From Candidatus Woesearchaeota archaeon (GTDB lineage Archaea; Nanobdellota; Nanobdellia; Woesearchaeales; WJIZ01): a stretch of 64,000 bases of DNA. Made by a program: the position numbers and the translations under genes. Shown in pieces: positions 5,614 to 60,182 of this stretch (positions are counted from its first letter, which is position 1; the number at the start of each line of letters is the position of its first letter). Location: positions 1,999 through 65,998 of the forward strand of contig JAAOYF010000046.1 of assembly GCA_018221205.1 (NCBI GenBank), read 5' to 3'. A model generated the notes under the pieces. It saw only the letters and a program-made list of their open reading frames with translations, made no database searches and was not told the DNA's origin.

Positions 5614-5658
5614 GAGTTAGAATAAGTAGAGGCACTATAGTTGGCTAAACGTAAGGGG

Positions 5659-33725: not shown

Positions 33726-33728
33726 ATA

Positions 33729-34142
33729 TCATAAAGAACGGAGCAAGCTTTGCACTATCTCTTTTGTAGAGAGAACTCTTACTAATGATTGTGCTTTCAT
33801 ATCTTTATCATTTGACCAGATAATCGAATTCTTAGCTAGAGCAAGGGCCAGATACGGAGAATCTTTCGGATCTGAGATTATGGCAAGTGCTTTCTTGAGG
33901 AAAGATTTGTACTCAGATAATCTCGCGAATTCAATCTGTTCAGATATCTCCATAAATCTTAACTGGAAGCCATGTTCAGATAATCTAGATTTCAGCAGGC
34001 ATTCTTCTTTATATTTGTTGAATTCAGAGAGAGCAAACTCGGGCGCAGAATATGTTGCCGATAGCACCGAGAAGACATATGACGTCACCGAAGATGGTTT
34101 CATAAGGGAAAAAAGAATATTGTTATCCAAAACGATTTTCAT
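33729..34142 (-). CDS. PIN-domain (VapC-like) ribonuclease toxin
   Basis: MKIVLDNNILFSLM...SDPKDSPYLALALAKNSIIWSNDKD gives the PIN acidic-residue pattern (D5, mid D, C-terminal D.D). It is convergent with and abuts the giant-1 stop, and it is the last gene of a 3-gene minus-strand operon. Confidence 0.7.
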   Translation of the reverse strand: MKIVLDNNILFSLMKPSSVTSYVFSVLSATYSAPEFALSEFNKYKEECLLKSRLSEHGFQLRFMEISEQIEFARLSEYKSFLKKALAIISDPKDSPYLALALAKNSIIWSNDKDMKAQSLVRVLSTKEIVQSLLRSL

Positions 34143-34145
34143 TGT

Positions 34146-34406
34146 TTATCCAAACAGTTCTTTCTTCTCTTTAGGAGAGGGTTTTGACTGCAATCGTTTG
34201 AATCTTCCTTTCTTGGATTTTCTCCCTAATTCTACAGCCCACTTCGTGAATTCTTTCTCTTCTTTGGAATCGAGCCTTTTCAATAATTGCTCTGCTGTTG
34301 CTCTTTTCAACACAGAACTTCTTGCTACTTCAGACCAATTTATCCATGATAATGTTTCCATCCTTGATTTCAATTTATCATCAATAGCGAATGTTATGCT
34401 TGCCAT
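34146..34406 (-). CDS. Ribbon-helix-helix (CopG/VapB-like) antitoxin-type protein
   Basis: MASITFAIDDKLKSRMETLSWINWSEVARSSVLKR fits the RHH beta-strand plus helix-A pattern. The C-terminal half is Lys-rich. Its start sits 1 nt after the stop of the upstream small RHH ORF. Confidence 0.5.
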   Translation of the reverse strand: MASITFAIDDKLKSRMETLSWINWSEVARSSVLKRATAEQLLKRLDSKEEKEFTKWAVELGRKSKKGRFKRLQSKPSPKEKKELFG

Positions 34407-34565
34407 TTATATCACTCCTTTACGTTTTAATTCCTCAAACTTCTCGATTTCAGTTACTTTGCGTACTATCTCTTCTCGGACAACAGCAGCCCAGTTTACA
34501 GCAGGAAACTGCTTCCTTACTTTATGCATCAATTCATCCGGTATATGTACAGTCATTCGTGGCAT
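34407..34565 (-). CDS. Small (52 aa) RHH-type putative antitoxin, absent from the ORF track because it is shorter than 60 aa
   Basis: Reverse-complement translation from ATG 34565-34563 gives MPRMTVHIPDELMHKVRKQFPAVNWAAVVREEIVRKVTEIEKFEELKRKGVI*, with a TAA at 34409-34407. MTVHIPDEL...AVNWAAVVREEI is RHH-like. It is tightly coupled to the two downstream ORFs. Confidence 0.5.
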   Translation of the reverse strand: MPRMTVHIPDELMHKVRKQFPAVNWAAVVREEIVRKVTEIEKFEELKRKGVI

Positions 34566-34663
34566 TTTATATGACCTCCCTTGTTTATATCGGAATAATT
34601 CCGATTCTGTTCATACAAGTAATTACTTTAGTACAAGTAATTACTTGAGTATATATAAATCTT

Positions 34664-35875
34664 GTGGTGAAGCATATGCGGCATAAGTTCATAGCATGGC
34701 TGTTGATGATTTTCATAGTCTCAAGTATGGCCTTTGCTATAGGAGTTTCTCCTGTCAGGAAAGTCATTGACTTTGAGCCCAATAAAGAAGTTGAATTGGA
34801 CCTTTTGATCAGGAATGATGCTGGATTCGATATCAAAGCATTAGTGTATGCACGAGGAGAATTAGCCGAGTATATCGGCATCAAAGACTCTCTTATGACT
34901 GTAACGAAGGAAGAGTCGCAGAAGAAAGCACGATATGTCATGAAGATGCCTGCTGCTTTTGAAAAACCAGGAGTGCATAAGACAGATCTTGTTGTTGTGG
35001 AGTATCCGAGTTCATTCGGCCAGGAAGGCGAGACTGCTGTTACTGCAACTGCCTCTGTGGTCACTGAGCTATGGGTCAGAGTGCCATTCCCAGGGAAATA
35101 TGCTGAAGCTGACCTCACGATCGACTCAAAAGAGGACAAGGTAGACTTCTACATCAATGTGCTGAACTTCGGCAAGGACGATATCAAAGAAGCAAAAGCT
35201 ACTATCAAGATATTAGGAGCGACGTATGAAGAGATCGCTGCTGTCGAAACACAAACAATCAGTATCAAAGCGCAGGATCAGGCACAATTGATCACTAGCT
35301 GGATCCCTAATGTCAATCCTGGAAGATATCATGCGATCGCTGAGATCGAGTATGACGGCAAGAAGATCATCTTAGAGAAGAACTTTGAGGTCGGGAAGCT
35401 GTATATCGAGATCAAGCGGATAGATGTCAAGGATTTCAATTTGGGAGATGTCGCTGTATTCGATATCCTCTTGTTGAGCCATTGGAACGAGATGATCCCT
35501 GATGTGTATGGCGAGATGACAGTCCTTGATGCAGACGGAACTGAATATACTAAATTCAAGACAGCCTCTGTTGATGTCGCTGCACAAGAAGAAGCCACTT
35601 TGAAAGCGTTCTGGGACACTGAAGGTATCACTGTCGGCACGTATACCTTACGGTTATTGATCCATTATGCTCAACGCGTTACAGAGAAATTGATTGATAC
35701 AGAAGTGAACATCGATTCTATCACCACTGAACTAGGTCCGACAGCCCAGGTTGTGGCTGAGGAAGGTATTGATCGAGATACTGTCCTCACTGTCCTGGTC
35801 ATCATCTTAGTTATCATCAATATTGTGTGGTTTGTGTACTTCATGAAATCAAAGAAGAAAGGTAAGAAAAAATGA
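34664..35875 (+). CDS. Secreted/membrane Ig-like beta-sandwich protein with a signal peptide and a C-terminal TM helix plus Lys-rich tail; paralogs at 43863 and 46948
   Basis: N-terminal IAWLLMIFIVSSMAFAIGVSP and C-terminal VLTVLVIILVIINIVWFVYFMKSKKKGKKK. Collinear similarity to 43863-45041 (RYHAIAEIEYDGKK...NWNEMIPDVYGEMTVLDADG vs IYRAEAEIDYGGKN...NWNEEIKNVYAELKVKQGEQ). Confidence 0.65.
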   Translation: MVKHMRHKFIAWLLMIFIVSSMAFAIGVSPVRKVIDFEPNKEVELDLLIRNDAGFDIKALVYARGELAEYIGIKDSLMTVTKEESQKKARYVMKMPAAFEKPGVHKTDLVVVEYPSSFGQEGETAVTATASVVTELWVRVPFPGKYAEADLTIDSKEDKVDFYINVLNFGKDDIKEAKATIKILGATYEEIAAVETQTISIKAQDQAQLITSWIPNVNPGRYHAIAEIEYDGKKIILEKNFEVGKLYIEIKRIDVKDFNLGDVAVFDILLLSHWNEMIPDVYGEMTVLDADGTEYTKFKTASVDVAAQEEATLKAFWDTEGITVGTYTLRLLIHYAQRVTEKLIDTEVNIDSITTELGPTAQVVAEEGIDRDTVLTVLVIILVIINIVWFVYFMKSKKKGKKK

Positions 35876-36055: not shown

Positions 36056-36610
36056 ATGTTAAAAGACTTGAAAGAGCAGAAAGAGAAGAGGCTTGGTAAA
36101 GTGTATCTGCAGGAAAAGTCCTCTTTAGTGAAGCTAGACAGCCTGTTCTCTGAACTCTCTCAAAAGTATGGCATGGATTATCAAAATGTCGCTCAATTAT
36201 TGAGAAGATTCCAGAGCTATCTCACTATCCCTGCTTCATTGTTCAAGACACGAGTGAGTCCTTTGGAAGCAGTTGTATTATTCTTACACCTTAAGTATAA
36301 GTGTACACAGACACAGATGGCTGAAATCCTTCATAGAGACCATACGACTATCTGGACTACGCTAGATAATGCCTGGAAGAAGACAACCAAAGCACAATTT
36401 CTGCAAAGCATTGAGGAAAGCGAGATATTGATCCCTGTCCACCTGTTATCAAATAGAAGATTGAGCATCTTAGAGGTTGTTGCCTCTTATATCAAAGATA
36501 AATATAGTCTGAAATATCGGGAGATTGCTACTTTATTAGATCGGGATGATCGGACTGTCTGGACTGTTATCGATAGAGCCAGAAAAAAGCTTATAAAGAA
36601 TAGACGATGA
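36056..36610 (+). CDS. Cassette-2 regulator with tandem sigma-70 r4 / HTH_10-like HTH units (paralog of 5659 and 46478)
   Basis: VSPLEAVVLFLHLKYKCTQTQMAEILHRDHTTIWTTLDNAWKK and LSILEVVASYIKDKYSLKYREIATLLDRDDRTVWTVIDRARKKL. There is an ATGA overlap with giant-2. Confidence 0.65.
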   Translation: MLKDLKEQKEKRLGKVYLQEKSSLVKLDSLFSELSQKYGMDYQNVAQLLRRFQSYLTIPASLFKTRVSPLEAVVLFLHLKYKCTQTQMAEILHRDHTTIWTTLDNAWKKTTKAQFLQSIEESEILIPVHLLSNRRLSILEVVASYIKDKYSLKYREIATLLDRDDRTVWTVIDRARKKLIKNRR

Positions 36611-39600
36611 GAATAAAGAATATGAAAAAATTTATGTATTCTCTAGTATTTTTGATATTAATCGGCTTTGTTTCTGCAACTCCTGTCGATGATGTCCGGA
36701 ATATGCCGGCTAATTCATGGATGGAAGTCCAGAATACGCTTCTTGATGATTTGCCTCTTCCTGTGCCTGAGCGCAGTCCACCAGGTGTGACCAATAGGCA
36801 AGCAGTCATAGATGCATGGAATAGCGGCGTCCTTACAGGCAATTATCTGCTGATCTGGGGAGGCGGGCATGGTGATTATAATGGTGACGAAGTATATGGA
36901 TTCAATCTACAGACAGGATCATTAGAACAGCTGAGCATACCTTCTTCTGATCCAATAATTGACGGAACAAACCCCAATAATGAGATGCAATATCCTGATG
37001 GGGGTCCTGTAGCTATGCATTCTTATGATAATATAGCCCATGATGGTAATGGTAATATGATACTGCTGCCTCAATCAGCAGGATGGAGAGGAGCTTTTGA
37101 AACTGATATTGTAATGAGATGGAATGTTGCTAAGAAAGGACAAGCCGGAAGTTCTTGGGATAGACTAGCAGATTCATCAAGTTATACAAGTTTTAATGAT
37201 AGGGCTCAAGACGCAGTAAGTGGTTTTGATGGTGACCATACCATATGGACCCATACTTCAGTGAGTGCAGGAAGATTAAGAAAATTCGATCTTTATGATA
37301 ACTCATGGACTGTCTATCGTAATGATGGAGCATGGCAAGGTGGTGATTCCGCGATAGGAACCATAGATACATTAAGAAACTTATTTGTTGTACATACAAC
37401 GGTAGGAATGTTTATTCAGGACTTATCAAGACCCAATGATCCTTTTATCAGACCCACTTCTGTCGGAGATACTAATCTATATCAAAATTATGGCATCGGT
37501 TTTGAATACAATCCTGATGATGGATTGATATATGCTTGGCGTGGAACAAATAATGTCTATCAATTAAGCATTTCTCAGGATTTACAAACAGTAACATGGA
37601 CTGAAGTTATAGGATCAGGTGATACGGCCCCAATTACCGGAACTAAAGATCCTAATGGGGATGATCGTTATATCGGCGGACGATTTAGGTATTGGCCTCA
37701 AGAAAAAGTTTTTGTATTATGGAATAACGCTTATGAAAATATTTATGTTTATAACCCACCCAGTATTATTGAAAAAGACCCAATAGATGCAATTATTAAT
37801 AATGCAGAACCTAATAGTTGGGTTAGACTTACTAATACTAAACTAAGTGATTATAATCCAGAAGATGATCCTAATACAAATCCTAATTTTCCAGATCTTG
37901 CTTCATGGCATGCTGTAAGTGGACAGAGAGGAATTTATGCTTATAGTGGAGCAACTTTTGCTCCTGATTATAATTACTTATTGGTTTTTGGAGGAGGACA
38001 TAATGATTATGCAGGTAATGAACTTTATGCTTTTGATGTTCTTAATATGAAATGGGAAAGACTTACAGATCCAGCAAATGCTTTGTATGATGCTATGCCT
38101 AGTTGCACTTATTATGATCCTTATGGACAAAGAAATATAACCTCTTCTTACAGACTTTTTGAATCATGCGGATATTATTCTAATGAAGCATTTGATGTTA
38201 CTTCAGTGCCTGATGAAGACAGAAATTTTAGGGAAACATGTCCTACAACACTGATTAGAGATAAATGTTTTGAAGAACCTTATGCTAGTTTACTTGATTT
38301 AGAAAATAATCCTCAACCTAGATCCCGTCATAGTAATGATTATCTGGTTTATTTACCTCAAATAAAAAGTTTTTGTTCTATAGGTGGAGGGGCTTTTTAT
38401 CAATATGCACATGGAGCTCCTTATATTGATTGTTATAGTTTAGAAACTAAAAAGTGGACTGCCAGAGCTTTTACTGATGTTCCTTATGGAAGTCATAATG
38501 CAGCTGTAGATTCAGAAGGAAATATTTGGACTCATGGAATAGGAACTAATGGAAGATTAGCAAAACTTGATACTTCAACTAATACTTGGACTCCACACAC
38601 AATTCACCCTTGGGGTTGGTGGAATTATGGAACTACTTTAAGAATTGACACTAATAATAATAATGCTTATTCTTTAGGGAGTGATCCTAGAAATAGTGGT
38701 AAAGCAATATTAGTAAAATGGGATCTTGATAATCCTAATAATCCTTTAGAAGAATTAGATTACACTTCACCTCCAGAAATGCCATTATTCAGTGCAGATA
38801 GTTTTGAATTTCATCCTGCTTCAGGAAAATTCTTCGCTTATGTAAATGGAAAAGATGTATATGTATTAGATGTAAATACTTTAGAATTCACAAAATATAT
38901 TGGCAGTGGAGAAGAACCAGCTATTGAAACAGATTATTATGGGAATAAATTCCCTGTATATGGAAGGTTTAGATATGTTCCTTCAAAAAACATTTTTGTA
39001 TTAGCAGGAGCAGTAACTGATGATGTATTTATTTATATTCCTCCAATAAATTTTGATCCACCACCATTACAATGCAATGATAATGATGTTAGACAGTGTG
39101 GAGTGACTGATATAGGACCTTGCCAGTATGGGACACAGACGTGTTCAAATGAGCAATGGGGGAGCTGTACTGGAGCAATCAATCCTGTTGCAGAGGTCTG
39201 TGATGATGGAGTGGATAATGATTGTGATACTGATACTGATAGTGCTGATTCTGATTGTCAAGTCTGCGAATGCTCTGATGCCCTTTGCGAGGCTGGAGAT
39301 ACTGGAATGGTTTGTGATGGATGTAATTATGTAGCTGCACCTCCTGAACTTTGTGATGATCAGCTTGATAATAACTGCGACGGCCAGACAGATGAAGGCT
39401 GCATTGCAGGCTGTTTTGCTGAGGATGTCGATCAGAATGGAAATGTAGGTATAGCTGATCTGCAGCAGATTGCACTTGCTTTTGGCACTTCTCCACCCTC
39501 AAATGTTCGAGCGGATATCAATGGAGATAATAAAGTCGGATTGCTTGATATCAGAGACGTTGTCATGAAATTCGGGCAAACAAGTAGCTGTGCACCTATT

Positions 39601-42600
39601 GATAATGATCAAGATGGTTATGCGAGCGATGTTGATTGCAATGATGACGATGATACAGTCTATCCTGGAGCACCTGAAATATGTAATGACGGCATTGACC
39701 AAGATTGTGATGGATCAGATGATATCTGCCCTGATCCAGGAGATCTCAATGCGCTGCTTGTTGTTGATGAGACTCTTCCTTGTATTCAAAGAGGTAATCG
39801 GGACTCAGAAGGACTTTGCATCGGAGGCACTGAAGCAGGCATCTCCAGGAGTGGAGAATTGGTGAGTTTCGGCGTGCCGTTGTATGATGAAGAAGGGATC
39901 ACTTCAGCAGACCAGCTCGGTCTTTTAGGAACATCCGCTTATCAAATCCATGAGCTTGAACGGTATGATTCTGGAAATCTTATGTGGGTATTAGTAAGTA
40001 CACTTGCTGATGTTCCTGCAGGTGGACAGACCAGTTTTACGTTGACAGGCGGCAGCGGCAAAGCAGGTGGAGCAGATCTTGCTATCGAGGGTGTCTCTAC
40101 TATCACCATCAATACGGGGACAGCACAATTTGTCCTCAATAAAGATCATTTCAATGTTCTTGATAGTGTTACAGTCAATGGGCAGAATCTTGTTTCTTCT
40201 GGACATGACAAAGGATTGGTCTTGGTAGATGGTACAGGCAAAGAATGGTGGGCGTATGATTCTGCAACAGAATTTACTATTATGGAGAATGGTCCTGTGA
40301 AGGCATTGATCAAGGCGAAAGGAAGATTTACTGATAATCAAGGAACACTTGGACCATTTGGCTGGACTTTATACATGACGTTCATCAAAGATTCCGGACA
40401 GGTGAAGATGAGTGCAGAATTGAGGAATGCCTATGAGGATGTCTGGGCCAATCAGCAGTTCCAATCATTTGAGATTATCCTACCGACGACTCTATCGGGC
40501 GCTTTAACCTACACCTTCCCGACGAATAGCGAGACCTATACGGGTACGGTGAACGGCAAAGCATACTTGTATCAGGGATTGTGCAATCTACACGCTGGAG
40601 GGGATGCTTGGCAGGTTCCGGGACACTATGCAGACAGTTCTGTCAATGAATCAACTGATCGTGGCACTAAAGTAGTCAATGGTGGAACCATCATCAAGGA
40701 CGTAACGGATGATCCTGAAGTCAGAACTGACTGCGTCACTGGTTGGGGCAGTTTTGAAGGGCAGAATGGAGGTATCACTGCTTCCTATCTTCATATGTAT
40801 GCTTATTTTCCTAGTGCATTTGAGTTTGCAGATGATGGGACTTTGACCATAGGCTTATTCTCATCGAGGATGATTGATAAGGATTATAATGTCTTTGATT
40901 GGGGTGTGCATGCTAATCGAGATATCCTTCTGGATTTCCATACTTCTCCTCAAGACAATGATGCTATTTGGGCAGCACTCAACAGGCCTCTCTTCGGAAG
41001 AGCACTCTGGGATCGATATAGTCTAAGCAGTGCTATCCTGGGTAAGAAGGGCTTTGCAAGCTCCCAGGAGCAAAAGGAAATCTTCGATGAGTATGGTTGG
41101 ACATTTTATGGAGATCCTGGATGGTATCGCGAGAATGATGATCTTTCAATCCTCAGATGGTATAGCCATAGCAAAGGAGGAGGAGACAATCAGAGAGATT
41201 CATCTTTTGCTGACTTTCTCGATTACTGGCGAACAGGTCATGGAGGCTATCTCTTGAATGGGTTGCAAAATTCTTTATTTAGATCTGATGAATACATGAG
41301 GCCTACCGATGGTTTTGATCCTCGATATAAATTCGAACCAGATCCTCAAAGCTGGCTGTACGATGATTATGATACTTCTGCAGGCAGGGCGATGAATGGG
41401 GGATATTATAATAAGATGGAGCGCGATAGTGAACATGGCCTGCGTTTCCAGAGCCTTGCTCTTGCGTATTATCTTACTGGCGACGAACGTTATTGGGAAG
41501 GATTGCTTGATGGCTTTGAAGGTTATTTCTCCTCTTCAGAATGGACTGATCATGGCATGAGCATCTGGAGCAGAAGCGGAGCATCTGCTGCGTATATCGG
41601 AGCATTAGCCCATGAGATCACTGGTGATAGCGCTTATCTTGACAGGCAAGTTAATCAGAGGATGAACGCTTTCTTGGGCAATGTCAATCAATATCCTGAG
41701 CTGCCTCGATGGGGATTCAGCAAACAACGAGGAAGCATGATTGCCAGTGGAGGAGATTATCCCCTTATCGAGAATCCTATTGAAGGATCGATGGAAGGAG
41801 ACATAGCTATTGATGATGGAACAGCACATCTTAAAGTAGAATGGTTCTCAAATACACCAGATACCTATTATAGTAGTTCATGGTTTGATTTTACTGTTAC
41901 GCTTAGTAATATCTCAGGTAATGCTACTGCTAATTTGACCTATCGTATTGAACGACCAGGGTTGGTCTTTGAAACTATTGATGATCCTCATGCACCTGGG
42001 GCAGATAGCTATGAAGTAAGGATCTATACTGATTCTGAACTAGATTTAGGGTCTTACACGTTTTCGGTCTTGAAAGAGGATATAGTAATCCTCAGCACAA
42101 CTCTTGATCTTGATGTGAAGCAGTATTCTCATGGGTTGTTCATCCATACCTATCATCCACCAGCTTTCCTAGAGGTGGTGAACAGGGTGCCTAAAGATTA
42201 TATCTTCATGCATGAGAAATACTATCCTGGACAGAGCCTTACACTTGAAGATGTGCGTGATACTGCTATTGGTATGGCCTACTATAACATCTTTGATGGT
42301 ATGGTATACCCTGAAGATGCTGACTTTGATCCGGGAGTGGCAAGAGGCCTTCCGTATGCCCGTAACACCAGATGGGTCTACGATTTCGCCGCTGCTCCAC
42401 TGCTTGCGTATACATATACTGGTGATACAGAATTCCTTGTCAGAGGGGCCAGGCTTGCTGTTGCATTAGCTAATGGTGATGGGGCACAGACATGGAGGAC
42501 GCATGCGAATCCTGACTTGCTCCAGCTTCTGTACTTAGTGAAACATCCTAATGAGGTAGTTGTTGGAGAAGTCGATCTTACTGTTCAGCAGAATGGAGGT

Positions 42601-42864
42601 AGTTATACTATGAGTTGGACCGCTCCAGCAGGTGCGAAGGAGTATCAACTCAAATATTATGATAGGCCATTGGTCGATAACCTTTATTATGATGCTGCAA
42701 CTGATAGTTATCAATATGACCCCAGCCAGTATTGGGCGTTCTGGGGAGCGTATAATACTGATCAGGAACCAATCCCAGCTGTAGCAGGCACTAGCCAACA
42801 AATCACTCTTTCAAATCTCGAATGTGGAAGCAGTTGCCATTTCATGATGAGATATTACGGATAA
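36607..42864 (+). CDS. Giant-2, a 2085-aa secreted protein with a signal peptide, two Kelch/galactose-oxidase-like beta-propellers, Cys-rich CxDxDxDG motifs flanking a dockerin module, a ~900-aa domain of unknown function and a C-terminal FN3-like domain
   Basis: MKKFMYSLVFLILIGFVSA signal peptide. GGGHGDYNGDEVYGFNLQTG and GGGHNDYAGNELYAFDVLNMKWERL are Kelch-like blades. CDDGVDNDCDTDTDSADSDC and CNDGIDQDCDGSDDICP are Cys-rich motifs. The dockerin runs 39421-39580. The true start may be the ATG at 36625. Confidence 0.85.
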   Translation: MRIKNMKKFMYSLVFLILIGFVSATPVDDVRNMPANSWMEVQNTLLDDLPLPVPERSPPGVTNRQAVIDAWNSGVLTGNYLLIWGGGHGDYNGDEVYGFNLQTGSLEQLSIPSSDPIIDGTNPNNEMQYPDGGPVAMHSYDNIAHDGNGNMILLPQSAGWRGAFETDIVMRWNVAKKGQAGSSWDRLADSSSYTSFNDRAQDAVSGFDGDHTIWTHTSVSAGRLRKFDLYDNSWTVYRNDGAWQGGDSAIGTIDTLRNLFVVHTTVGMFIQDLSRPNDPFIRPTSVGDTNLYQNYGIGFEYNPDDGLIYAWRGTNNVYQLSISQDLQTVTWTEVIGSGDTAPITGTKDPNGDDRYIGGRFRYWPQEKVFVLWNNAYENIYVYNPPSIIEKDPIDAIINNAEPNSWVRLTNTKLSDYNPEDDPNTNPNFPDLASWHAVSGQRGIYAYSGATFAPDYNYLLVFGGGHNDYAGNELYAFDVLNMKWERLTDPANALYDAMPSCTYYDPYGQRNITSSYRLFESCGYYSNEAFDVTSVPDEDRNFRETCPTTLIRDKCFEEPYASLLDLENNPQPRSRHSNDYLVYLPQIKSFCSIGGGAFYQYAHGAPYIDCYSLETKKWTARAFTDVPYGSHNAAVDSEGNIWTHGIGTNGRLAKLDTSTNTWTPHTIHPWGWWNYGTTLRIDTNNNNAYSLGSDPRNSGKAILVKWDLDNPNNPLEELDYTSPPEMPLFSADSFEFHPASGKFFAYVNGKDVYVLDVNTLEFTKYIGSGEEPAIETDYYGNKFPVYGRFRYVPSKNIFVLAGAVTDDVFIYIPPINFDPPPLQCNDNDVRQCGVTDIGPCQYGTQTCSNEQWGSCTGAINPVAEVCDDGVDNDCDTDTDSADSDCQVCECSDALCEAGDTGMVCDGCNYVAAPPELCDDQLDNNCDGQTDEGCIAGCFAEDVDQNGNVGIADLQQIALAFGTSPPSNVRADINGDNKVGLLDIRDVVMKFGQTSSCAPIDNDQDGYASDVDCNDDDDTVYPGAPEICNDGIDQDCDGSDDICPDPGDLNALLVVDETLPCIQRGNRDSEGLCIGGTEAGISRSGELVSFGVPLYDEEGITSADQLGLLGTSAYQIHELERYDSGNLMWVLVSTLADVPAGGQTSFTLTGGSGKAGGADLAIEGVSTITINTGTAQFVLNKDHFNVLDSVTVNGQNLVSSGHDKGLVLVDGTGKEWWAYDSATEFTIMENGPVKALIKAKGRFTDNQGTLGPFGWTLYMTFIKDSGQVKMSAELRNAYEDVWANQQFQSFEIILPTTLSGALTYTFPTNSETYTGTVNGKAYLYQGLCNLHAGGDAWQVPGHYADSSVNESTDRGTKVVNGGTIIKDVTDDPEVRTDCVTGWGSFEGQNGGITASYLHMYAYFPSAFEFADDGTLTIGLFSSRMIDKDYNVFDWGVHANRDILLDFHTSPQDNDAIWAALNRPLFGRALWDRYSLSSAILGKKGFASSQEQKEIFDEYGWTFYGDPGWYRENDDLSILRWYSHSKGGGDNQRDSSFADFLDYWRTGHGGYLLNGLQNSLFRSDEYMRPTDGFDPRYKFEPDPQSWLYDDYDTSAGRAMNGGYYNKMERDSEHGLRFQSLALAYYLTGDERYWEGLLDGFEGYFSSSEWTDHGMSIWSRSGASAAYIGALAHEITGDSAYLDRQVNQRMNAFLGNVNQYPELPRWGFSKQRGSMIASGGDYPLIENPIEGSMEGDIAIDDGTAHLKVEWFSNTPDTYYSSSWFDFTVTLSNISGNATANLTYRIERPGLVFETIDDPHAPGADSYEVRIYTDSELDLGSYTFSVLKEDIVILSTTLDLDVKQYSHGLFIHTYHPPAFLEVVNRVPKDYIFMHEKYYPGQSLTLEDVRDTAIGMAYYNIFDGMVYPEDADFDPGVARGLPYARNTRWVYDFAAAPLLAYTYTGDTEFLVRGARLAVALANGDGAQTWRTHANPDLLQLLYLVKHPNEVVVGEVDLTVQQNGGSYTMSWTAPAGAKEYQLKYYDRPLVDNLYYDAATDSYQYDPSQYWAFWGAYNTDQEPIPAVAGTSQQITLSNLECGSSCHFMMRYYG
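39421..39580 (+). other. Dockerin type-I-like module with two F-hand Ca-binding repeats
   Basis: DVDQNGNVGIADLQQIALAFG and DINGDNKVGLLDIRDVVMKFG each fit the 12-residue loop D1-x-[DN]3-x-[DN]5-G-x-V8-x-x-x-D12 followed by a helix. The repeats start 30 residues apart, as in canonical dockerins. Confidence 0.65.
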
Positions 42865-43862: not shown

Positions 43863-45041
43863 ATGAGGTATATCTTTTTTCTTCTTGCTTTAGTTCTTTT
43901 ATCTAGCCTTGTTTCTGCATCGTCTGCTATGGGAGTGGCTCCTTCTAGCCATAATCTTATCTATACTGGAGCGAAAATCATTGAAGGATCGTATTTTGTC
44001 TATCCTGACGAAGAAAAGAATGTCAGATCTTATGGTGTAGGGGATCTGAAAGAATATCTTACACTTAATGATGGGGAGACTGAAATCAGACAGCGCATAA
44101 GTGAACCTACTGAAATCAAGTATAGGTTGGAATTACCTGAGAACCTGAAGCCTAAAGACTACCGCTTAAAGATTGTCAATAGCCAATTCTTGTCTGATGA
44201 AGACAAGTTGGTAGGGGGGTTTGCCACTGCTTTTGCTGCGATGTCATTCGTAATCAATGTGAGGGTGCCCAATGAAGGTAAGTTCCTGGAAACAGGGATG
44301 TCGATCAAACCCGAAAAGATAACTGTAGGAGATAGCATTCTCTTTTCCGTATGGATGCTTAACTTCGGCACTGAGGATCTGACAGACCTGCAGACTGAGA
44401 TACGGGTGAGAGACCCTCAAGGGGTGCTCCTTGCACGACTGCCTACTTGGGACATAGCCCTGCTTGAGCCTGCGCAACGTACAGGCGTGAATGTACTATG
44501 GAAGTCTGAGGGCCATGGTTCGGGTATTTACCGCGCTGAAGCAGAGATCGATTATGGAGGAAAGAATCCTGCACTCACAACGACAGGATTTCGCATCGGA
44601 GACATCTTCATCGAAATTCTCAATATCACTTCTGAATTGAACAGCACCATCGCCAAGATTGATGTGCATGTCAGGAGCAACTGGAATGAAGAGATCAAGA
44701 ATGTCTATGCAGAGCTTAAAGTGAAGCAAGGCGAACAGATCTTTGATACGATACGGACAAGTTCAGTCAATCTGCCGGCGTGGGGAGAAGATGTCCTGAC
44801 AGGATTCTGGGAGCGCGGACAATTGAAATCAGGAGATTACCTTTTGGAGATATTCGTCTATTATTATGATAAATATACGCAAGAGACAAAATCAGTAACG
44901 CTTGATGCTCTTGGGCAACCACTCACCAAGGAGCAGAACAACAACTTCACCATCATCATCATAGTCTTCCTTGCCCTTATCCTGATCCTCAACATTCTTT
45001 GGTTCTTCCACAGCACAAGAAAAAAACACAAGAAACGATGA
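43863..45041 (+). CDS. Ig-like beta-sandwich surface protein with a signal peptide and a C-terminal TM helix plus basic tail (paralog of 34664)
   Basis: N-terminal MRYIFFLLALVLLSSLVSASSA and C-terminal FTIIIIVFLALILILNILWFFHSTRKKHKKR. Confidence 0.65.
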   Translation: MRYIFFLLALVLLSSLVSASSAMGVAPSSHNLIYTGAKIIEGSYFVYPDEEKNVRSYGVGDLKEYLTLNDGETEIRQRISEPTEIKYRLELPENLKPKDYRLKIVNSQFLSDEDKLVGGFATAFAAMSFVINVRVPNEGKFLETGMSIKPEKITVGDSILFSVWMLNFGTEDLTDLQTEIRVRDPQGVLLARLPTWDIALLEPAQRTGVNVLWKSEGHGSGIYRAEAEIDYGGKNPALTTTGFRIGDIFIEILNITSELNSTIAKIDVHVRSNWNEEIKNVYAELKVKQGEQIFDTIRTSSVNLPAWGEDVLTGFWERGQLKSGDYLLEIFVYYYDKYTQETKSVTLDALGQPLTKEQNNNFTIIIIVFLALILILNILWFFHSTRKKHKKR

Positions 45042-46411: not shown

Positions 46412-46484
46412 GTTTACTCATATATATTTACTTTAGGGTAATATTTATAAATAGATATACTTATATGTATATACTAGATGCCTA
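46412..46484 (+). promoter_or_regulatory. Degenerate TACTTA...TAGG motif copies upstream of, and overlapping, the cassette-3 regulator start
   Basis: TTTACTCATATATATTTACTTTAGGGTAATA and ATACTTATATGTATATACTAGATGCCTAGG, the latter spanning the ATG at 46478. Confidence 0.45.
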
Positions 46485-46951
46485 GGAATCTGAGAAAAGA
46501 CAAGCGTTTTCTGCAAATTAGAGAGCTTTTAGAGCAGCTTGAGAAGGATTATGGGATAAGTAAAAAGGAGATTCTTGAGATTTCTGAAGACATCCTGATT
46601 CCGGTCTCGCTTTATTCTTCTGGATTGAGCTCTCTGGAGATCATTGTCAAATATCTGAAGGAGGGCAAGCAGTTTTCTCTTTCAACAATCGCGAAGCTTA
46701 CTGGTAGAAGCAAGCAAGGAGTATGGCAGTCTCTTTCACATGCCCGTAAGAAGCATCCTAAAGCATTCGTTTCTGATGCATCGCCTTATGATTTTCCTGT
46801 TTCCATAATCTCAGACAAGAAACACTCTGTTCTTGAGTCTATTGTCGTGCACCTCAAGGAAGCACATAGCTTGAGCTATGCACAGATTGCTAGACTGTTG
46901 AACAGGGATCAACGAACAGTGTGGACTGTATACAACAAAGTGAAGAAATGA
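46478..46951 (+). CDS. Cassette-3 regulator with tandem sigma-70 r4 / HTH_10-like HTH units
   Basis: LSSLEIIVKYLKEGKQFSLSTIAKLTGRSKQGVWQSLSHARKK and HSVLESIVVHLKEAHSLSYAQIARLLNRDQRTVWTVYNKVKK. Confidence 0.65.
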   Translation: MPRNLRKDKRFLQIRELLEQLEKDYGISKKEILEISEDILIPVSLYSSGLSSLEIIVKYLKEGKQFSLSTIAKLTGRSKQGVWQSLSHARKKHPKAFVSDASPYDFPVSIISDKKHSVLESIVVHLKEAHSLSYAQIARLLNRDQRTVWTVYNKVKK

Positions 46952-48075
46952 GCTCAACTGAAAGATTGCGGACGGAGAAAGAGCAGCTGCAAGAGAGCAT
47001 CATGAAGTGTGAACAATATCTCACTCAACTGGATCAGCGGCTCAATACCCTCACCAAGCAACTCGAGAATAAAGAGATAGATGAGCTTAGCTATACCATG
47101 CTCACCTCTACTTCACTAGGTGGACGGTCGTTCGGGCACTATATCTATCACTATGAAGACCTTATCAAGGGCTATCAGGAAAGGATAGCTAAGATAGATA
47201 AGAAGGTCAAGCATAAAAATACGACAGTCATCAGTGTTGCGGCTATCTTTGTTGCTATCATGCTCTCGAGCCTCTTCCTTAATTCAGATATCACTGGCCA
47301 GATCACTTTCAGCGTCATCGAGGCGCTTTCAGATCCTATCGAAAGGGAGTTCAATGAGAGTGTGAGAGTACCCTTAGATAATACGCAGGCCCTGAATACG
47401 TTCACCATGACCGGAAAGTATAATGGAACAGGGTTCTTGCGTATCTATCTTGATTCTCCGCGACAGTCTTACTTAGTGTACGGTACAGATGATCCTTCAA
47501 CATTCAAGGATGAATGCGGACAGGCCTGTTATCTGCAGCCCGAGGACAACTATACGCTGAGGATACAGCTTTCAGGACAAGGAAGCGTAAAAATTGAGAA
47601 AGTTACGTATCTCTTCTCTGAATTGAGAGAATTCACTCTCGAGCCAGAGGTGGCGATCCATAATCTGACAGACAATAGGTTCATCAAGGGCAGCTTTGAC
47701 CTTGTATCAAAGAGGGGAAGAGACTTCAGTGTTGCGCTCTATGGTGAGGGGCAGTTAGCAGATTATCTCACCCTCTACACTTCTTATGCAGACTTCAGGT
47801 CAAGTCCAGAACAGAAGATATCCTATGATCTTGATCTGCCGCTGCAGATGGCACCAGGTACGTATACCAGCAAGATTATCGTCAAATACCTGCCAAAAGA
47901 CAAGTTCTCTGGCAAGACTCCTGAAGAGGTGCATGATATTGTCGTCAATATAAGGGGGAGGGAAGAAGCAGCAGAGGAAGGCTCCTACCTCTCCATACTC
48001 TTCACTATCCTTATCGCTCTTTTCGGTATCAATCTGATCTATTTCCTCTATCGGAAGCTCTTTCTTAAAAAATAG
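46948..48075 (+). CDS. Ig-like membrane protein with a cytoplasmic coiled-coil N-terminus, an N-terminal TM with post-TM DITG motif, and a C-terminal TM plus basic tail (paralog of 34664 and 43863)
   Basis: ATGA overlap with the regulator stop (46948-46951), and the ORF track starts at 46921. VISVAAIFVAIMLSSLFLNSDITGQITF, GQLADYLTLYTSYADF (cf. GELAEYIGIKDSLMTV in the 34664 ORF) and C-terminal SILFTILIALFGINLIYFLYRKLFLKK. Confidence 0.6.
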   Translation: MSSTERLRTEKEQLQESIMKCEQYLTQLDQRLNTLTKQLENKEIDELSYTMLTSTSLGGRSFGHYIYHYEDLIKGYQERIAKIDKKVKHKNTTVISVAAIFVAIMLSSLFLNSDITGQITFSVIEALSDPIEREFNESVRVPLDNTQALNTFTMTGKYNGTGFLRIYLDSPRQSYLVYGTDDPSTFKDECGQACYLQPEDNYTLRIQLSGQGSVKIEKVTYLFSELREFTLEPEVAIHNLTDNRFIKGSFDLVSKRGRDFSVALYGEGQLADYLTLYTSYADFRSSPEQKISYDLDLPLQMAPGTYTSKIIVKYLPKDKFSGKTPEEVHDIVVNIRGREEAAEEGSYLSILFTILIALFGINLIYFLYRKLFLKK

Positions 48076-48145: not shown

Positions 48146-48328
48146 ATGAAGAAAAGCGACTTGCTCCACATCCGTGTGGGCAAAGAGATGAAGAAGCAGA
48201 TACAGAAGCTGATAGAGATAGGGCTGTTTTCTACTGAAGCTGAAATCGCACGCGAAGGCATACGAAGCATTCTCCTGAAATATCTGAAAGAGGCTGGTCT
48301 CGAAAAGAAGAATGATAAAAAGAAATAG
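48146..48328 (+). CDS. CopG-family ribbon-helix-helix DNA-binding protein
   Basis: MKKSDLLHIRVGKEMKKQIQKLIEIGLFSTEAEIAREGIRSILLKY matches the CopG pattern (beta-strand; ..ekid.lve.G.f.sRSEaIReAir..l). Confidence 0.55.
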   Translation: MKKSDLLHIRVGKEMKKQIQKLIEIGLFSTEAEIAREGIRSILLKYLKEAGLEKKNDKKK

Positions 48329-58004: not shown

Positions 58005-59291
58005 ATGCCTAGGCTGAAGACTAAAAAAAGGGGTAAAGCTGATAGAATCGACCGGCTGAGAGCAAAGCTGGAGAGGGATCAGTCTCGACTCAATCGACGA
58101 GGCCCCAAACATATGGCTGATGTCGAAGAACAGATTAAACAGATTTCTAAACAAGGATCTAAACAAACTGAACCAGAACCAGAACATGAGCCAAGATCAA
58201 CAGCTGCGACAGTACGGGCGGATGAAACACAAGATGCAGTAGATAGGATCGTCAATTCTGTCAAGGACCAGGCACAGGAGCCGACAGACCAACTGCAGAA
58301 ATTTTTGCTGAGCAAGACGTATGCCAACAGGTTAAAGGCATATGTCAAGGTCTTTGCAGATGTCAGAAAAGAGATCGCTAAACTTGTCGTCGGGCAGGAT
58401 GAGATAGTAACTGCACTTCTTCGTGCGTTGGTCTCTGACGGCCACGTCTTGATAGAGGGCGTCCCGGGAATCGCAAAAACAACCTTGATCAGGGCCCTCT
58501 CTAAAACTCTTGACTGCTCTTTTGCGCGAATCCAGTTCACTCCCGATCTTCTGCCGAGCGATATCATCGGCATCAGCACCTATCAGGAAGGAAGAGGATT
58601 CTATACTTTAAAAGGACCTATCTTCAATAATTTTATCCTGGCAGATGAGATCAACAGGGCGCCGCCTAAAGTACAGAGTGCGCTGCTCGAGAGCATGGCA
58701 GAGAAACAGGCCACTATCGCCAAGGAGACCTTTCCTGTTCCGCTACCCTTTTTCACCATGGCAACACAGAATCCCTTAGAGAGCATGGGGACCTATACCT
58801 TGCCAGAAGCACAGATCGACAGATTCCTGTTCAAGCTCTATATGGGCTATCCTAATATTGAAGATGAGCAGCTGATTCTCCGCTCGAACATCAATGAGCA
58901 GCTCTTTGATACGTATGAGATAAAGCCCATACTCAATCCAGAGACCCTTCTCGATATCCAGGCCGATTCAAAGAAGATATATGTCGCAAAGAAAGTGGAG
59001 AAGTATATCGTGCGCATCGTCGATGCGACACGAAATCCGAAGAAGTACGGCGTTTCACTGGGCAAATATATCGACTATGGAGGCTCACCTCGAGCATCTA
59101 TCGGCATCTTCAAAGCTGCCAGATCTGATGCGATGATCCATGGGCAGAATTTTGTCACTCCACACCATGTCAAGGCAGTCACGAAGGATGTCTTGAGGCA
59201 TCGACTGCTGATGAGTTATGAAGGGCAGGCAGAGAATATCAAATCAGAAGATATCATCGATGAAATCCTGAAAAAGGTTCCTGTTCCATGA
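58005..59291 (+). CDS. MoxR-family AAA+ ATPase
   Basis: VGQDEIVTALLRALVSDGHVLIEGVPGIAKTTLIRALSK (Walker A) and FILADEINRAPPKVQSALLESMAE (Walker B/sensor) are typical of MoxR. Confidence 0.9.
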   Translation: MPRLKTKKRGKADRIDRLRAKLERDQSRLNRRGPKHMADVEEQIKQISKQGSKQTEPEPEHEPRSTAATVRADETQDAVDRIVNSVKDQAQEPTDQLQKFLLSKTYANRLKAYVKVFADVRKEIAKLVVGQDEIVTALLRALVSDGHVLIEGVPGIAKTTLIRALSKTLDCSFARIQFTPDLLPSDIIGISTYQEGRGFYTLKGPIFNNFILADEINRAPPKVQSALLESMAEKQATIAKETFPVPLPFFTMATQNPLESMGTYTLPEAQIDRFLFKLYMGYPNIEDEQLILRSNINEQLFDTYEIKPILNPETLLDIQADSKKIYVAKKVEKYIVRIVDATRNPKKYGVSLGKYIDYGGSPRASIGIFKAARSDAMIHGQNFVTPHHVKAVTKDVLRHRLLMSYEGQAENIKSEDIIDEILKKVPVP

Positions 59292-60181: not shown

Positions 60182-60182
60182 C

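What the first reader, a model, noticed from the sequence alone, without database searches (positions are those of the whole stretch)
39060..39740. Canonical dockerin module embedded in Cys-rich repeats in giant-2, with no cohesin partner in the window
Two F-hand Ca-loop-plus-helix repeats (DVDQNGNVGIADLQQIALAFG and DINGDNKVGLLDIRDVVMKFG, 30 residues apart) form a dockerin. They are flanked by CxDxxDNDCDxxxD repeats (CDDGVDNDCDTDTDSADSDC, CDDQLDNNCDGQTDEGC and CNDGIDQDCDGSDDICP) that resemble putative metal-binding motifs. A dockerin implies a cohesin-bearing scaffold elsewhere, for example an S-layer or host-surface scaffoldin. Archaeal cohesin-dockerin systems are poorly characterised.
Basis: partly seen in the sequence, partly recalled or inferred. 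Interest (0 to 1): 0.6.

Follow-up and report, generated by a model that had tools for sequence, protein, structure and literature searches.

The report
Non-cellulosomal dockerin in a Woesearchaeota secreted protein
A 60-residue calcium-binding "dockerin" plug, a module that normally snaps proteins onto a partner, really is present in a large secreted protein of a tiny symbiotic-type archaeon; such stray dockerins are already known in archaea and bacteria, and its partner is still unidentified.

Summary
All five quoted peptides are in ORF 36607-42864 (+), which encodes 2085 aa and is 100% identical to a "hypothetical protein" of a Candidatus Woesearchaeota MAG.

The two F-hand repeats (aa 940-960 and 970-990) form one dockerin-type module, aa ~936-995.
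- Pfam Dockerin_1 scores just below its cutoff (20.9 vs 22.9 bits).
- 467 proteins in a 1.8-billion-protein library match the segment at E<=1e-3. Of the 47 relatives aligned with it, 44-45 hit Dockerin_1.
- The family profile hits solved dockerins at E=1e-17, against about 1e-9 for calmodulin.
- An AF2 model (pLDDT 89.5) superposes on dockerin 2Y3N_B at 1.1 A, and the top 22 fold hits are all dockerins.

The flanking Cys-rich repeats pass Pfam PF11617 (MopE-type).

The host protein reads: signal peptide, two Kelch propellers, Cys-rich block, dockerin, MopE repeat, PcRGLX-like (exo-rhamnogalacturonan-lyase family) domain. It has no membrane anchor.

A paralogue on the same contig carries the same module in a different position. 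No cohesin is detectable in the window. Whether a cohesin partner exists elsewhere is untested.

Verdict: a real but ordinary non-cellulosomal dockerin, a new member of a known kind. "Canonical" is overstated.

The parts
36607..42864 (+). Host gene ('giant-2'), 2085 aa. It is 100% identical to NCBI hypothetical protein GOV09_05750 of a Candidatus Woesearchaeota archaeon MAG.
   Evidence: ORF list, translation, identity and source name.
36607..36678 (+). N-terminal hydrophobic segment, probably a signal peptide (aa ~1-24, ...LIGFVSA|TP). It is the only hydrophobic stretch, so the protein has no C-terminal membrane anchor.
   Evidence: Kyte-Doolittle scan. Cleavage is inferred, not shown.
36694..39051 (+). 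Two Kelch-type beta-propeller regions, aa ~30-395 and ~400-815.
   Evidence: Pfam Kelch_6, Kelch_4 and KLHDC2-type hits at aa 446-502. The Kelch-containing homologues are the only distant relatives found with the full protein. Paralogue P0110 aligns to both halves.
39073..39414 (+). Cys-rich block, aa 823-936, holding two CxDxxDNDCD (MopE-type) motifs at aa 865-884 and 916-932.
   Evidence: Motif positions. Pfam PF11617 scores 46.7 and 51.2 bits against a cutoff of 27, in 3 stretches. The same block is conserved in paralogue P0110.
39412..39591 (+). Dockerin-type module, aa 936-995. Ca loop 1 is D940-D951, followed by helix 950-959 and the linker TSPPSNVRA. Ca loop 2 is D970-D981, followed by helix ~981-989. 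Cys936 (position -3) and Cys995 (five residues after the final FG) flank the module.
39424..39486 (+). F-hand repeat 1, DVDQNGNVGIADLQQIALAFG. Ligand positions 1/3/5/12 are D/D/N/D.
39514..39576 (+). F-hand repeat 2, DINGDNKVGLLDIRDVVMKFG. Ligand positions 1/3/5/12 are D/N/D/D.
39634..39732 (+). Third MopE-type repeat, aa 1010-1042 (DCNDDDDTVYPGAPEICNDGIDQDCDGSDDICP).
   Evidence: Best PF11617 stretch is aa 1010-1039, covering profile positions 1-29 of 30.
39757..42861 (+). C-terminal ~1035 aa homologous to the PcRGLX-like / 'exo-rhamnogalacturonan lyase family' proteins. It carries an inserted segment at aa ~1670-1875 that is absent from the bacterial homologue.
   Evidence: the search for homologous proteins gives 4 hits at E 3e-81 to 9e-59, all with PF21345. 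BLASTP to P0159 gives 32% identity and E=3e-76, plus a C-terminal segment at E=3e-15. The direct Pfam hit is weak: PF21345 at 17.4 bits against 23.5.
36056..36610 (+). Small HTH protein (Sigma70_r4_2-like) whose stop overlaps the start of the host gene. It is one of three paralogues that each precede a giant gene.
   Evidence: Pfam, paralogy, coordinates.

Best explanation
Residues ~936-995 of the 2085-aa protein are a genuine dockerin-type module of the non-cellulosomal kind. It is a tandem duplication of a 12-residue EF-hand-like Ca2+ loop plus helix, and it folds into the three-helix dockerin fold only when two Ca2+ ions are bound.

The module sits between disulfide-rich MopE-type repeats in the middle of a secreted protein with no anchor. 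The domain order is: signal peptide, two Kelch propellers, Cys-rich block, dockerin, MopE repeat, PcRGLX-like polysaccharide-lyase-family domain.

The most likely role is a Ca2+-dependent protein-protein docking plug. It would tether this extracellular protein, and at least one paralogue on the same contig, non-covalently to a partner protein on a cell surface. By analogy that partner is a cohesin or another beta-sandwich receptor.

Shown here: the sequence family, the Ca-ligand pattern, the predicted fold, the modular shuffling and the domain context. Inferred only: Ca2+ binding, docking, and the identity and location of the partner.
For: 1. Homology. phmmer of the 70-aa segment against 1.84 billion representatives gives 467 proteins at E<=1e-3. 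Full-length two-repeat matches reach 40-53% identity and share the linker FGTSPPSDPRADVNGD.
2. Family identity. 45 of the 48 aligned sequences, the query included, hit Pfam Dockerin_1 at E<=1e-3, best 1e-13. NCBI names relatives in Thermoplasmatota and Aenigmarchaeota 'dockerin type I domain-containing protein'.
3. Solved structures. The query alone hits dockerins first in the PDB (2y3n_B, E=0.0065). The family profile hits 2y3n_B at E=1.1e-17 and type II dockerins at 1e-11 to 6e-10. Calmodulins reach only ~1e-9.
4. Fold. The AF2 model built on the alignment has pLDDT 89.5 and pTM 0.76, with helices at 19-28, 37-39 and 49-57. The top 22 Foldseek PDB hits are all dockerins. 2y3n_B gives TM 0.77/0.89 and rmsd 1.1 A over 60 columns, while calmodulin-type hits give TM ~0.23.
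5. Ca ligands. Positions 1, 3, 5 and 12 are D or N in both loops. The unusual residues also occur in the family: Gly at position 9 in 20-22% of relatives, and Asn at position 6 in 16%.
6. Independent module. Paralogue GOV09_05670 (P0110) lies on the same contig and is 30% identical over 639 aligned columns. It places its dockerin (37% identical over the dockerin-containing stretch; 51% over the 70-aa query segment) before the Cys-rich block rather than after it.
7. Need for a tether. The host protein has one N-terminal hydrophobic segment and no C-terminal anchor. Neighbouring surface proteins have C-terminal TM anchors.
8. Enzyme-plus-dockerin layout. The C-terminal 1035 aa are homologous to the exo-rhamnogalacturonan-lyase family.
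Against: - Pfam Dockerin_1 is below its gathering score: 20.9 bits for the isolated segment and 14.5 bits in context, against 22.9.
- No cohesin (PF00963) is detectable in any sizeable ORF of the window. No neighbour resembles a solved cohesin by sequence.
- Two other dockerin-bearing loci, one of them from an Aenigmarchaeota archaeon, show no cohesin within 10 kb either.
- The dockerin is internal, not terminal as in most cellulosomal enzymes.
- The AF2 model depends on an alignment of dockerin relatives and on a network trained on dockerin structures, so it is not fully independent evidence. The single-sequence model failed with pLDDT 36.7.
- No experiment supports Ca2+ binding or docking.
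- The N-terminal hydrophobic segment could be an uncleaved signal anchor. That would remove the need for a tether.
Confidence: 0.6

Rival explanations
1. The module is a dockerin-fold domain that does not use a cohesin at all. Either it serves as a Ca2+-rigidified structural spacer between the disulfide-rich repeats, or it is an adhesin element that binds a non-cohesin ligand, such as a host-cell surface protein or a glycan. On this reading no scaffoldin exists in the organism.
For: - No cohesin Pfam hit anywhere in the 64-kb window.
- None within +-10 kb of dockerin genes in two other loci, one of them from an Aenigmarchaeota archaeon.
- The module is embedded mid-protein between Cys-rich repeats.
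- Dockerins in giant ORFs of ultra-small Omnitrophota have been proposed to act as adhesins (PMC10066038, read).
- From my recollection of Peer et al. 2009, which could not be opened here: many genomes carry dockerin-like modules without detectable cohesins.
Against: - Only 64 kb of the genome was examined.
- Every dockerin whose function has been solved binds a cohesin. All of the top 22 fold hits are dockerins, most of them solved in complex with a cohesin.
- The same module occurs in two paralogues on the contig, and three consecutive Aenigmarchaeota genes carry one. That pattern fits a shared receptor better than a mere spacer.
Confidence: 0.3
2. The segment is a generic EF-hand pair, a calmodulin-like Ca2+ sensor or buffer, rather than a dockerin.
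For: - Weak Pfam EF-hand_6, EF-hand_1 and EF-hand_7 hits on the segment, E 0.02-0.18.
- 7 to 16 of the 48 aligned sequences also hit EF-hand models.
- The family profile matches calmodulins at ~1e-9.
Against: - Dockerin_1 is the best Pfam hit.
- The family profile scores solved dockerins about 25 bits above calmodulin: 66.6 against 41 bits.
- The model's TM-score to calmodulin or troponin C is ~0.2, against 0.77-0.89 to a dockerin.
- Each loop is followed by a helix but not preceded by one, which is the F-hand pattern and not the EF-hand pattern.
Confidence: 0.05
3. It is a chance resemblance: two Asp/Asn-rich loops in an acidic, low-complexity Cys/Asp-rich region, with no folded module.
For: - The surrounding sequence is very rich in D, N and C.
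- Pfam is sub-threshold.
- The single-sequence AF2 run gave no confident fold.
Against: - The leave-one-out family profile scores 87.2 bits, against a maximum of 9.2 bits over 2000 shuffles.
- 467 database matches at E<=1e-3.
- Confident AF2 model with the alignment.
- Conserved paralogous copy on the same contig.
Confidence: 0.02

Closest known systems
Non-cellulosomal dockerin-like modules of Archaea and Bacteria (Pfam PF00404 Dockerin_1). They are surveyed by Peer et al. 2009, as cited in PMC10066038, and mentioned in PMC3821032.
   Same: - Tandem F-hand repeats with D/N at Ca positions 1, 3, 5 and 12, and a three-helix predicted fold.
- Nearest relatives are annotated dockerin type I proteins of Thermoplasmatota and Aenigmarchaeota.
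- The organism shows no sign of a cellulosome.
   Different: - This copy falls 2 bits below the Pfam gathering score, so it is unannotated in NCBI and in the precomputed Pfam listing.
- It lies mid-protein between MopE-type Cys repeats.
- It is bracketed by Cys at positions -3 and +5.
Bacteroides (Pseudobacteroides) cellulosolvens Cel48 dockerin, PDB 2Y3N chain B, solved in a type II cohesin-dockerin complex.
   Same: - Best sequence hit: E=0.0065 for the query alone and 1.1e-17 for the family profile.
- Best structural hit: TM 0.77/0.89, rmsd 1.1 A, 27% identity.
- Similar length, a similar linker, and hydrophobic residues at loop positions 10-11.
   Different: - 2Y3N_B is the C-terminal module of a cellulosomal GH48 and has a known cohesin partner.
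- The archaeal module is internal, no partner is known, and position 9 is Gly instead of Asn in both loops.
Clostridium thermocellum type I enzyme-borne dockerins, for example PDB 1OHZ and 2CCL.
   Same: Duplicated 22-residue segment architecture and a Ca-dependent fold class.
   Different: - The fold match is much weaker: E 2-9, TM ~0.5.
- The Ser-Thr recognition pair at loop positions 10-11 is replaced by Ile-Ala and Leu-Leu. The Ser-Thr pair itself is from my own knowledge of these structures.
MopE-type 'putative metal-binding motif' repeats (Pfam PF11617), abundant in Myxococcota secreted proteins.
   Same: - The three flanking repeats score above the Pfam cutoff.
- A scan of genome representatives with the block mostly recovers such repeats in Myxococcota and other bacteria.
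   Different: - Here they flank a dockerin in an archaeal protein.
- Among the 80 loci recovered, only one ORF (in L026) also carried a dockerin-like module, with no MopE-type motif beside it.
- Metal binding is unproven for these repeats.
PcRGLX-like / exo-rhamnogalacturonan lyase family (Pfam PF21345). This is the cargo domain.
   Same: The C-terminal 1035 aa align along most of their length with proteins of this family, at 32% identity and E=3e-81.
   Different: - The direct Pfam hit is sub-threshold.
- No NCBIfam hit and no PDB sequence hit.
- A ~200-aa insertion is present.
- Catalytic residues and substrate were not assessed.

Membership tests
Dockerin (Pfam PF00404 Dockerin_1) | Score at or above the Pfam gathering threshold of 22.9 bits | tested here: not met
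   14.5 bits (E=0.043) in the whole protein, 17.3 bits in a 242-aa excerpt, and 20.9 bits (E=4e-4) for the isolated 68-aa segment. Dockerin_1 is nevertheless the top-scoring family for the segment.
Dockerin (Pfam PF00404 Dockerin_1) | Significant homology to sequences that are themselves accepted dockerins | tested here: met
   467 hits at E<=1e-3 in 1.84 billion proteins. 45 of the 48 aligned sequences, the query included, hit Dockerin_1, best 1e-13. The family profile hits PDB dockerin 2y3n_B at E=1.1e-17. The leave-one-out profile scores the query 87.2 bits.
Dockerin (Pfam PF00404 Dockerin_1) | Two tandem ~22-residue segments, each a 12-residue Ca loop followed by a helix, joined by a short linker | tested here: met
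   Loops at D940-D951 and D970-D981, 30 residues apart. In the model a helix follows each loop and a short helix sits in the linker.
Dockerin (Pfam PF00404 Dockerin_1) | Asp/Asn at Ca-coordinating loop positions 1, 3, 5 and 12 | tested here: met
   D-D-N-D in loop 1 and D-N-D-D in loop 2. Position 9 is Gly in both loops, as in 20-22% of family members.
Dockerin (Pfam PF00404 Dockerin_1) | Three-helix dockerin fold, distinct from a calmodulin-type EF-hand pair | tested here: met
   This rests on a predicted structure only. AF2 gives pLDDT 89.5. The top 22 Foldseek hits are dockerins, with rmsd 1.1 A to 2y3n_B. Calmodulin gives TM ~0.23.
Dockerin (Pfam PF00404 Dockerin_1) | Intramolecular clasp between the residues just before loop 1 and the C-terminal tail (PMC3821032) | tested here: inconclusive
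   Cys936 at position -3 and Cys995 at +5 after the final FG are placed where a clasp is expected. Paired flanking Cys occur in 56 of 156 related modules, against 5 N-only and 15 C-only.
Dockerin (Pfam PF00404 Dockerin_1) | Ca2+-dependent folding and binding to a cohesin | not testable with these tools
   This needs recombinant protein (CD, ITC, ELISA) and a candidate cohesin.
Cohesin-dockerin assembly (cellulosome-like system) | A cohesin-bearing partner (PF00963) encoded by the same organism | tested here: not met
   Tested for the window only. No PF00963 hit at E<=0.1 in the ORFs scanned. No PDB cohesin similarity in the neighbouring surface proteins. It is not among the GTDB representatives searched, and the exact-protein look-ups failed.
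Cohesin-dockerin assembly (cellulosome-like system) | Several different proteins carrying the same type of dockerin | tested here: met
   Two proteins on the same 75-kb contig carry it: this one and GOV09_05670 (P0110). Only one dockerin lies inside the window itself.
Cohesin-dockerin assembly (cellulosome-like system) | Dockerin fused to a carbohydrate-active catalytic module | tested here: inconclusive
   The C-terminal domain is homologous to the exo-rhamnogalacturonan-lyase family. The Pfam hit is sub-threshold, there is no solved relative by sequence, and activity is unknown.
MopE-type Cys-rich repeat (Pfam PF11617) | Score at or above the Pfam gathering threshold of 27 bits | tested here: met
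   46.7 bits for the whole protein and 51.2 bits for the excerpt, in 3 stretches. The best stretch is aa 1010-1039, covering profile positions 1-29 of 30.
EF-hand pair (calmodulin-like) | Helix-loop-helix pair fold and EF-hand Pfam models above threshold | tested here: not met
   EF-hand_1, EF-hand_6 and EF-hand_7 score 12.6-15.1 bits against cutoffs of 25-30. TM to calmodulin or troponin C is ~0.2.

The most novel reading that the evidence does not exclude
This DPANN archaeon, and perhaps DPANN archaea more widely, could run a small cohesin-dockerin-like docking system. Cited for this: two paralogues on this contig, and three consecutive dockerin-bearing genes in an Aenigmarchaeota locus.

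In such a system, anchorless secreted enzymes and adhesins with disulfide-clasped dockerins would plug into a divergent beta-sandwich receptor that Pfam does not recognise. One candidate is the membrane-anchored CARDB-like proteins encoded beside each giant gene. Another is a receptor on the host cell surface. Either would give a modular, Ca2+-dependent mechanism for cell-surface display or for attachment of the symbiont to its host.
Probability: 0.12. Interest if true: 0.6.

Novelty: new member of a known kind. Interest (0 to 1): 0.25.

Why it matters
The result adds a correct domain annotation to a protein that public databases list as hypothetical. It also shows that a Woesearchaeota genome equips at least two large secreted Kelch-propeller proteins with the same dockerin plug. 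One of them carries a polysaccharide-lyase-family domain.

If a partner were found, it would show how an ultra-small archaeon with no anchor on these proteins keeps them at a cell surface, either its own or its host's. As it stands, this is one more non-cellulosomal dockerin without a known partner. That class was recognised more than a decade ago and is routinely annotated in related MAGs.

Tried and rejected
- Word-indexed homologue search with the 70-aa segment found nothing, because no candidate shared three 5-mers. The first attempt failed on a parameter limit. One capped search was lost.
- Single-sequence AF2 of aa 915-1046 gave pLDDT 36.7 and was unusable.
- Exact-protein look-ups for the host protein and for paralogue P0110 found no contig on record. 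The part of the contig outside the window and the rest of the MAG could therefore not be read.
- NCBIfam gave no hit for the whole protein.
- PDB sequence searches with the C-terminal 1044 aa and with a 5-sequence profile of it found no solved relative.
- A PDB sequence search with six concatenated neighbouring proteins found no cohesin or anything else.
- With the 226-aa block it returned mainly MopE repeats of Myxococcota, not the source MAG. Only one of those 80 loci had a dockerin-like module, so 'MopE-dockerin-MopE' is not a recurrent architecture there.
- Peer et al. 2009 (PMC3035643) is not held and could not be read.
- I considered harvesting cohesin sequences to build my own HMM. I rejected this as no more sensitive than the Pfam model already run.
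- The EF-hand (calmodulin-like) reading and the chance-motif reading were both considered and rejected.

Full report
**1. What is at the coordinates**

The interval 39060-39740 lies inside a single long ORF, 36607-42864 on the + strand, encoding 2085 aa.
- F-hand 1, DVDQNGNVGIADLQQIALAFG: aa 940-960, nt 39424-39486.
- F-hand 2, DINGDNKVGLLDIRDVVMKFG: aa 970-990, nt 39514-39576, starting exactly 30 residues later.
- CxDxxDNDCD-type motifs: aa 865-884, 916-932 and 1026-1042.

The protein is 100% identical to NCBI 'hypothetical protein GOV09_05750 [Candidatus Woesearchaeota archaeon]' on a 75,366-nt contig. The archaeal (DPANN) attribution is therefore right. The precomputed Pfam listing for that record holds only a Kelch family and PF11617, with no dockerin.

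**2. Is it a dockerin?**

*Direct Pfam test.* Dockerin_1 (PF00404) is the best family for the isolated 68-aa segment. It scores 20.9 bits (E=4e-4) against a gathering score of 22.9. In the full protein it scores 14.5 bits. The curated threshold is narrowly missed, so 'canonical' is too strong.

*Homology.* phmmer of the 70-aa segment against 1.84 billion representative proteins gives 467 proteins at E<=1e-3 and 15 at E<=1e-10. Many are full-length, two-repeat matches at 40-53% identity. They share even the inter-repeat linker (FGTSPPSDPRADVNGD).

I aligned the query with 47 such domains (A1).
- 45 of the 48 sequences hit Dockerin_1 at E<=1e-3, best 1e-13.
- The A1 profile hits solved dockerins first: 2y3n_B at E=1.1e-17, type II dockerins 2b59_B, 3kcp_A and 4wi0_B at 1e-11 to 5e-11. 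Calmodulins come only at ~1e-9.
- The query alone also ranks dockerins first in the PDB (2y3n_B, E=0.0065).
- A profile built without the query scores it 87.2 bits. The best of 2000 shuffles of the segment scores 9.2 bits.

*Fold.* AF2 without an alignment failed, with pLDDT 36.7. With A1 it gave pLDDT 89.5 and pTM 0.76. The core is at 95-98, a helix follows each loop, and a short helix sits in the linker.

Foldseek against the PDB returns dockerins as the top 22 hits. 2y3n_B gives TM 0.77/0.89 and rmsd 1.1 A over 60 columns. Calmodulin and troponin C reach TM ~0.2.

The model is not independent of the dockerin family alignment or of AF2's training set.

*Ligands.* Loop positions 1/3/5/12 are D/D/N/D and D/N/D/D. 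The atypical residues are minority states that do occur in 155 related modules: Gly at position 9 in both loops (20-22% of relatives) and Asn at position 6 of loop 2 (16%). Positions 10-11 are Ile-Ala and Leu-Leu, which are hydrophobic. From my own knowledge, C. thermocellum type I dockerins have Ser-Thr there.

Conclusion: this is a real dockerin-type module, divergent enough to slip under the Pfam threshold.

**3. The flanks**

The Cys-rich repeats are the Pfam 'putative metal-binding motif' Cu-binding_MopE (PF11617). They score 46.7 bits against a cutoff of 27, in three stretches, the best at aa 1010-1039. A scan of genome representatives with the 226-aa block recovers mostly such repeats in Myxococcota and other bacteria. 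Only one of those 80 loci also holds a dockerin-like module.

**4. The host protein**
- One N-terminal hydrophobic segment (aa 9-27), probably a signal peptide, and no other hydrophobic stretch.
- Kelch-type propeller sequence from aa ~30 to ~815.
- The Cys-rich block, the dockerin, and a third MopE repeat.
- About 1035 C-terminal residues that align with proteins carrying PF21345 (PcRGLX_2nd). One of them is named 'exo-rhamnogalacturonan lyase family protein'. The match is 32% identity with E=3e-81.

The direct Pfam hit to PF21345 is sub-threshold. No solved relative is found by sequence. Activity is therefore inferred only at the family level.

The layout, a secreted enzyme-family domain plus a dockerin and no anchor, is what a tethering module would be needed for. 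Neighbouring surface proteins instead have C-terminal TM anchors.

**5. A second copy on the same contig**

One of the database hits, P0110, is 'GOV09_05670, partial' from the same 75,366-nt contig. It is not in the window. It is a paralogue of the second propeller and the Cys-rich block, at 30% identity over 639 aligned columns and E=4e-77.

Its dockerin is 37% identical over the dockerin-containing stretch and 51% over the 70-aa query segment. It sits before the Cys-rich block rather than after it. This shows the dockerin behaves as an independent, shuffled module. It also shows that at least two proteins of this organism carry it.

In an Aenigmarchaeota contig (L002), three consecutive genes carry related dockerins.

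**6. Cohesin**

No PF00963 hit at E<=0.1 was found in any ORF scanned. The scan covered both other giants (9167 aa and 2998 aa) and the sizeable + strand ORFs. The neighbouring surface proteins show no similarity to any solved cohesin. Two other dockerin loci, one of them archaeal, show no cohesin within 10 kb.

The rest of the MAG could not be reached. So 'no cohesin in the window' is confirmed at HMM sensitivity, and 'a cohesin must exist elsewhere' remains untested.

**7. Mechanism and rivals**

The best-supported reading (confidence ~0.6) is a Ca2+-dependent docking plug. It would hold this anchorless extracellular protein and its paralogue on a protein partner at a cell surface.

The main rival (~0.3) is a cohesin-independent role, as a Ca-stiffened spacer or as an adhesin toward a non-cohesin ligand. 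This fits the absence of detectable cohesins and the suggestion that dockerins in giant ORFs of ultra-small bacteria act as adhesins (PMC10066038).

A calmodulin-like EF-hand pair and a chance motif are rejected.

**8. Comparison with the known, and novelty**

Novel dockerin modules from cellulosomal and non-cellulosomal Bacteria and Archaea are described in the literature (PMC3821032). Peer et al. [quoted passage not shown] Relatives in DPANN and Thermoplasmatota MAGs are already auto-annotated as dockerin type I proteins.

This is therefore a new member of a known kind. The useful increment is the annotation itself, which is missed by threshold-based pipelines, together with the domain context and the paralogue.

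One small structural point may merit follow-up. Cys936 (position -3) and Cys995 (+5 after the final FG) bracket the module where dockerins form a non-covalent 'intramolecular clasp' (PMC3821032). Paired flanking cysteines occur in 56 of 156 related modules, against 5 N-only and 15 C-only. This suggests a disulfide version of the clasp.

**9. Verdict**

Interest is low to moderate (0.25).

Noticed in passing
window 5641-6237, 36056-36610, 46478-46951 (each just upstream of 6222-33725, 36607-42864, and 46921-48075 / 48312-57308): A cassette is repeated three times. A small HTH protein (Sigma70_r4_2-like) lies directly upstream of, and overlaps, a giant secreted-protein gene of 9167, 2085 or 2998 aa; in the third case a 384-aa gene lies in between. 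The three HTH proteins are paralogues at 30-35% identity. They may be dedicated regulators of the giant genes.
   Followed up: partly
window 34664-35875, 43863-45041, 46921-48075: Paralogous proteins flank the giant genes. The first two have a signal peptide, CARDB-like beta-sandwich sequence and a C-terminal TM helix with a basic tail, and share 26% identity (E=1e-27). The third has an internal and a C-terminal hydrophobic segment and no CARDB hit, and matches the second more weakly. They are anchored beta-sandwich surface proteins next to the dockerin gene, so they are untested candidates for a docking receptor. No cohesin signal was seen by Pfam for any of the three, nor by PDB sequence search for the first two.
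   Followed up: partly
window 39412-39414 (Cys936) and 39589-39591 (Cys995): Cysteines bracket the dockerin at position -3 and at +5 after the final FG. Among 156 related full-length modules, 56 have Cys on both sides, 5 on the N side only and 15 on the C side only. This suggests a disulfide version of the dockerin 'intramolecular clasp' described in PMC3821032.
   Followed up: partly
Same NCBI contig, outside the window: protein P0110 = GOV09_05670 (partial): A paralogue of giant-2 with the order Kelch propeller, dockerin, Cys-rich/MopE block. Here the dockerin comes before the Cys block, not after it.
   Followed up: yes
L002 10001-16898 (Aenigmarchaeota MAG GCA_030018415.1, contig JASEGC010000007.1): Three consecutive genes (1056, 95 and 960 aa) each carry related dockerin modules. 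The third is not flagged by the precomputed Pfam listing. No cohesin lies within the 17-kb locus.
   Followed up: partly
window 39757-42861: The C-terminal ~1035 aa of giant-2 belong to the PcRGLX-like / exo-rhamnogalacturonan-lyase family, at 32% identity and E=3e-81 to a Desulfoluna protein. A ~200-aa insertion is present relative to that protein. There is no solved relative by sequence.
   Followed up: partly
window 6222-33725: A 9167-aa ORF with about 11 Laminin_G_3 domains, many FG-GAP repeats, DUF2341, Big_13, CARDB and sialidase-N-like segments. It has one N-terminal hydrophobic segment. This is a giant putative adhesin, with no dockerin and no cohesin.
   Followed up: partly
window 48312-57308: A 2998-aa ORF with 8 Big_9 domains and weaker cadherin-like, PKD and He_PIG matches. 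It has several hydrophobic segments, including a C-terminal anchor.
   Followed up: no
window 180-1184 and 1305-2297: Two adjacent ORFs both match the apiosidase-like catalytic domain (PF13204). The first also matches Collagen_bind_2. They cover overlapping parts of the profile, so they could be tandem paralogues, one of them truncated.
   Followed up: no
window 58005-61118: A MoxR-type AAA ATPase, DUF58 and VWA/BatA gene trio. This is a conserved MoxR-VWA module unrelated to the finding.
   Followed up: no
window 33712-34686: A 324-aa ORF with a TTG start, Ser/Asn/Cys-rich low-complexity sequence and no Pfam hit. It overlaps the end of the 9167-aa gene and the next gene. It is probably not a real gene.
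   Followed up: no
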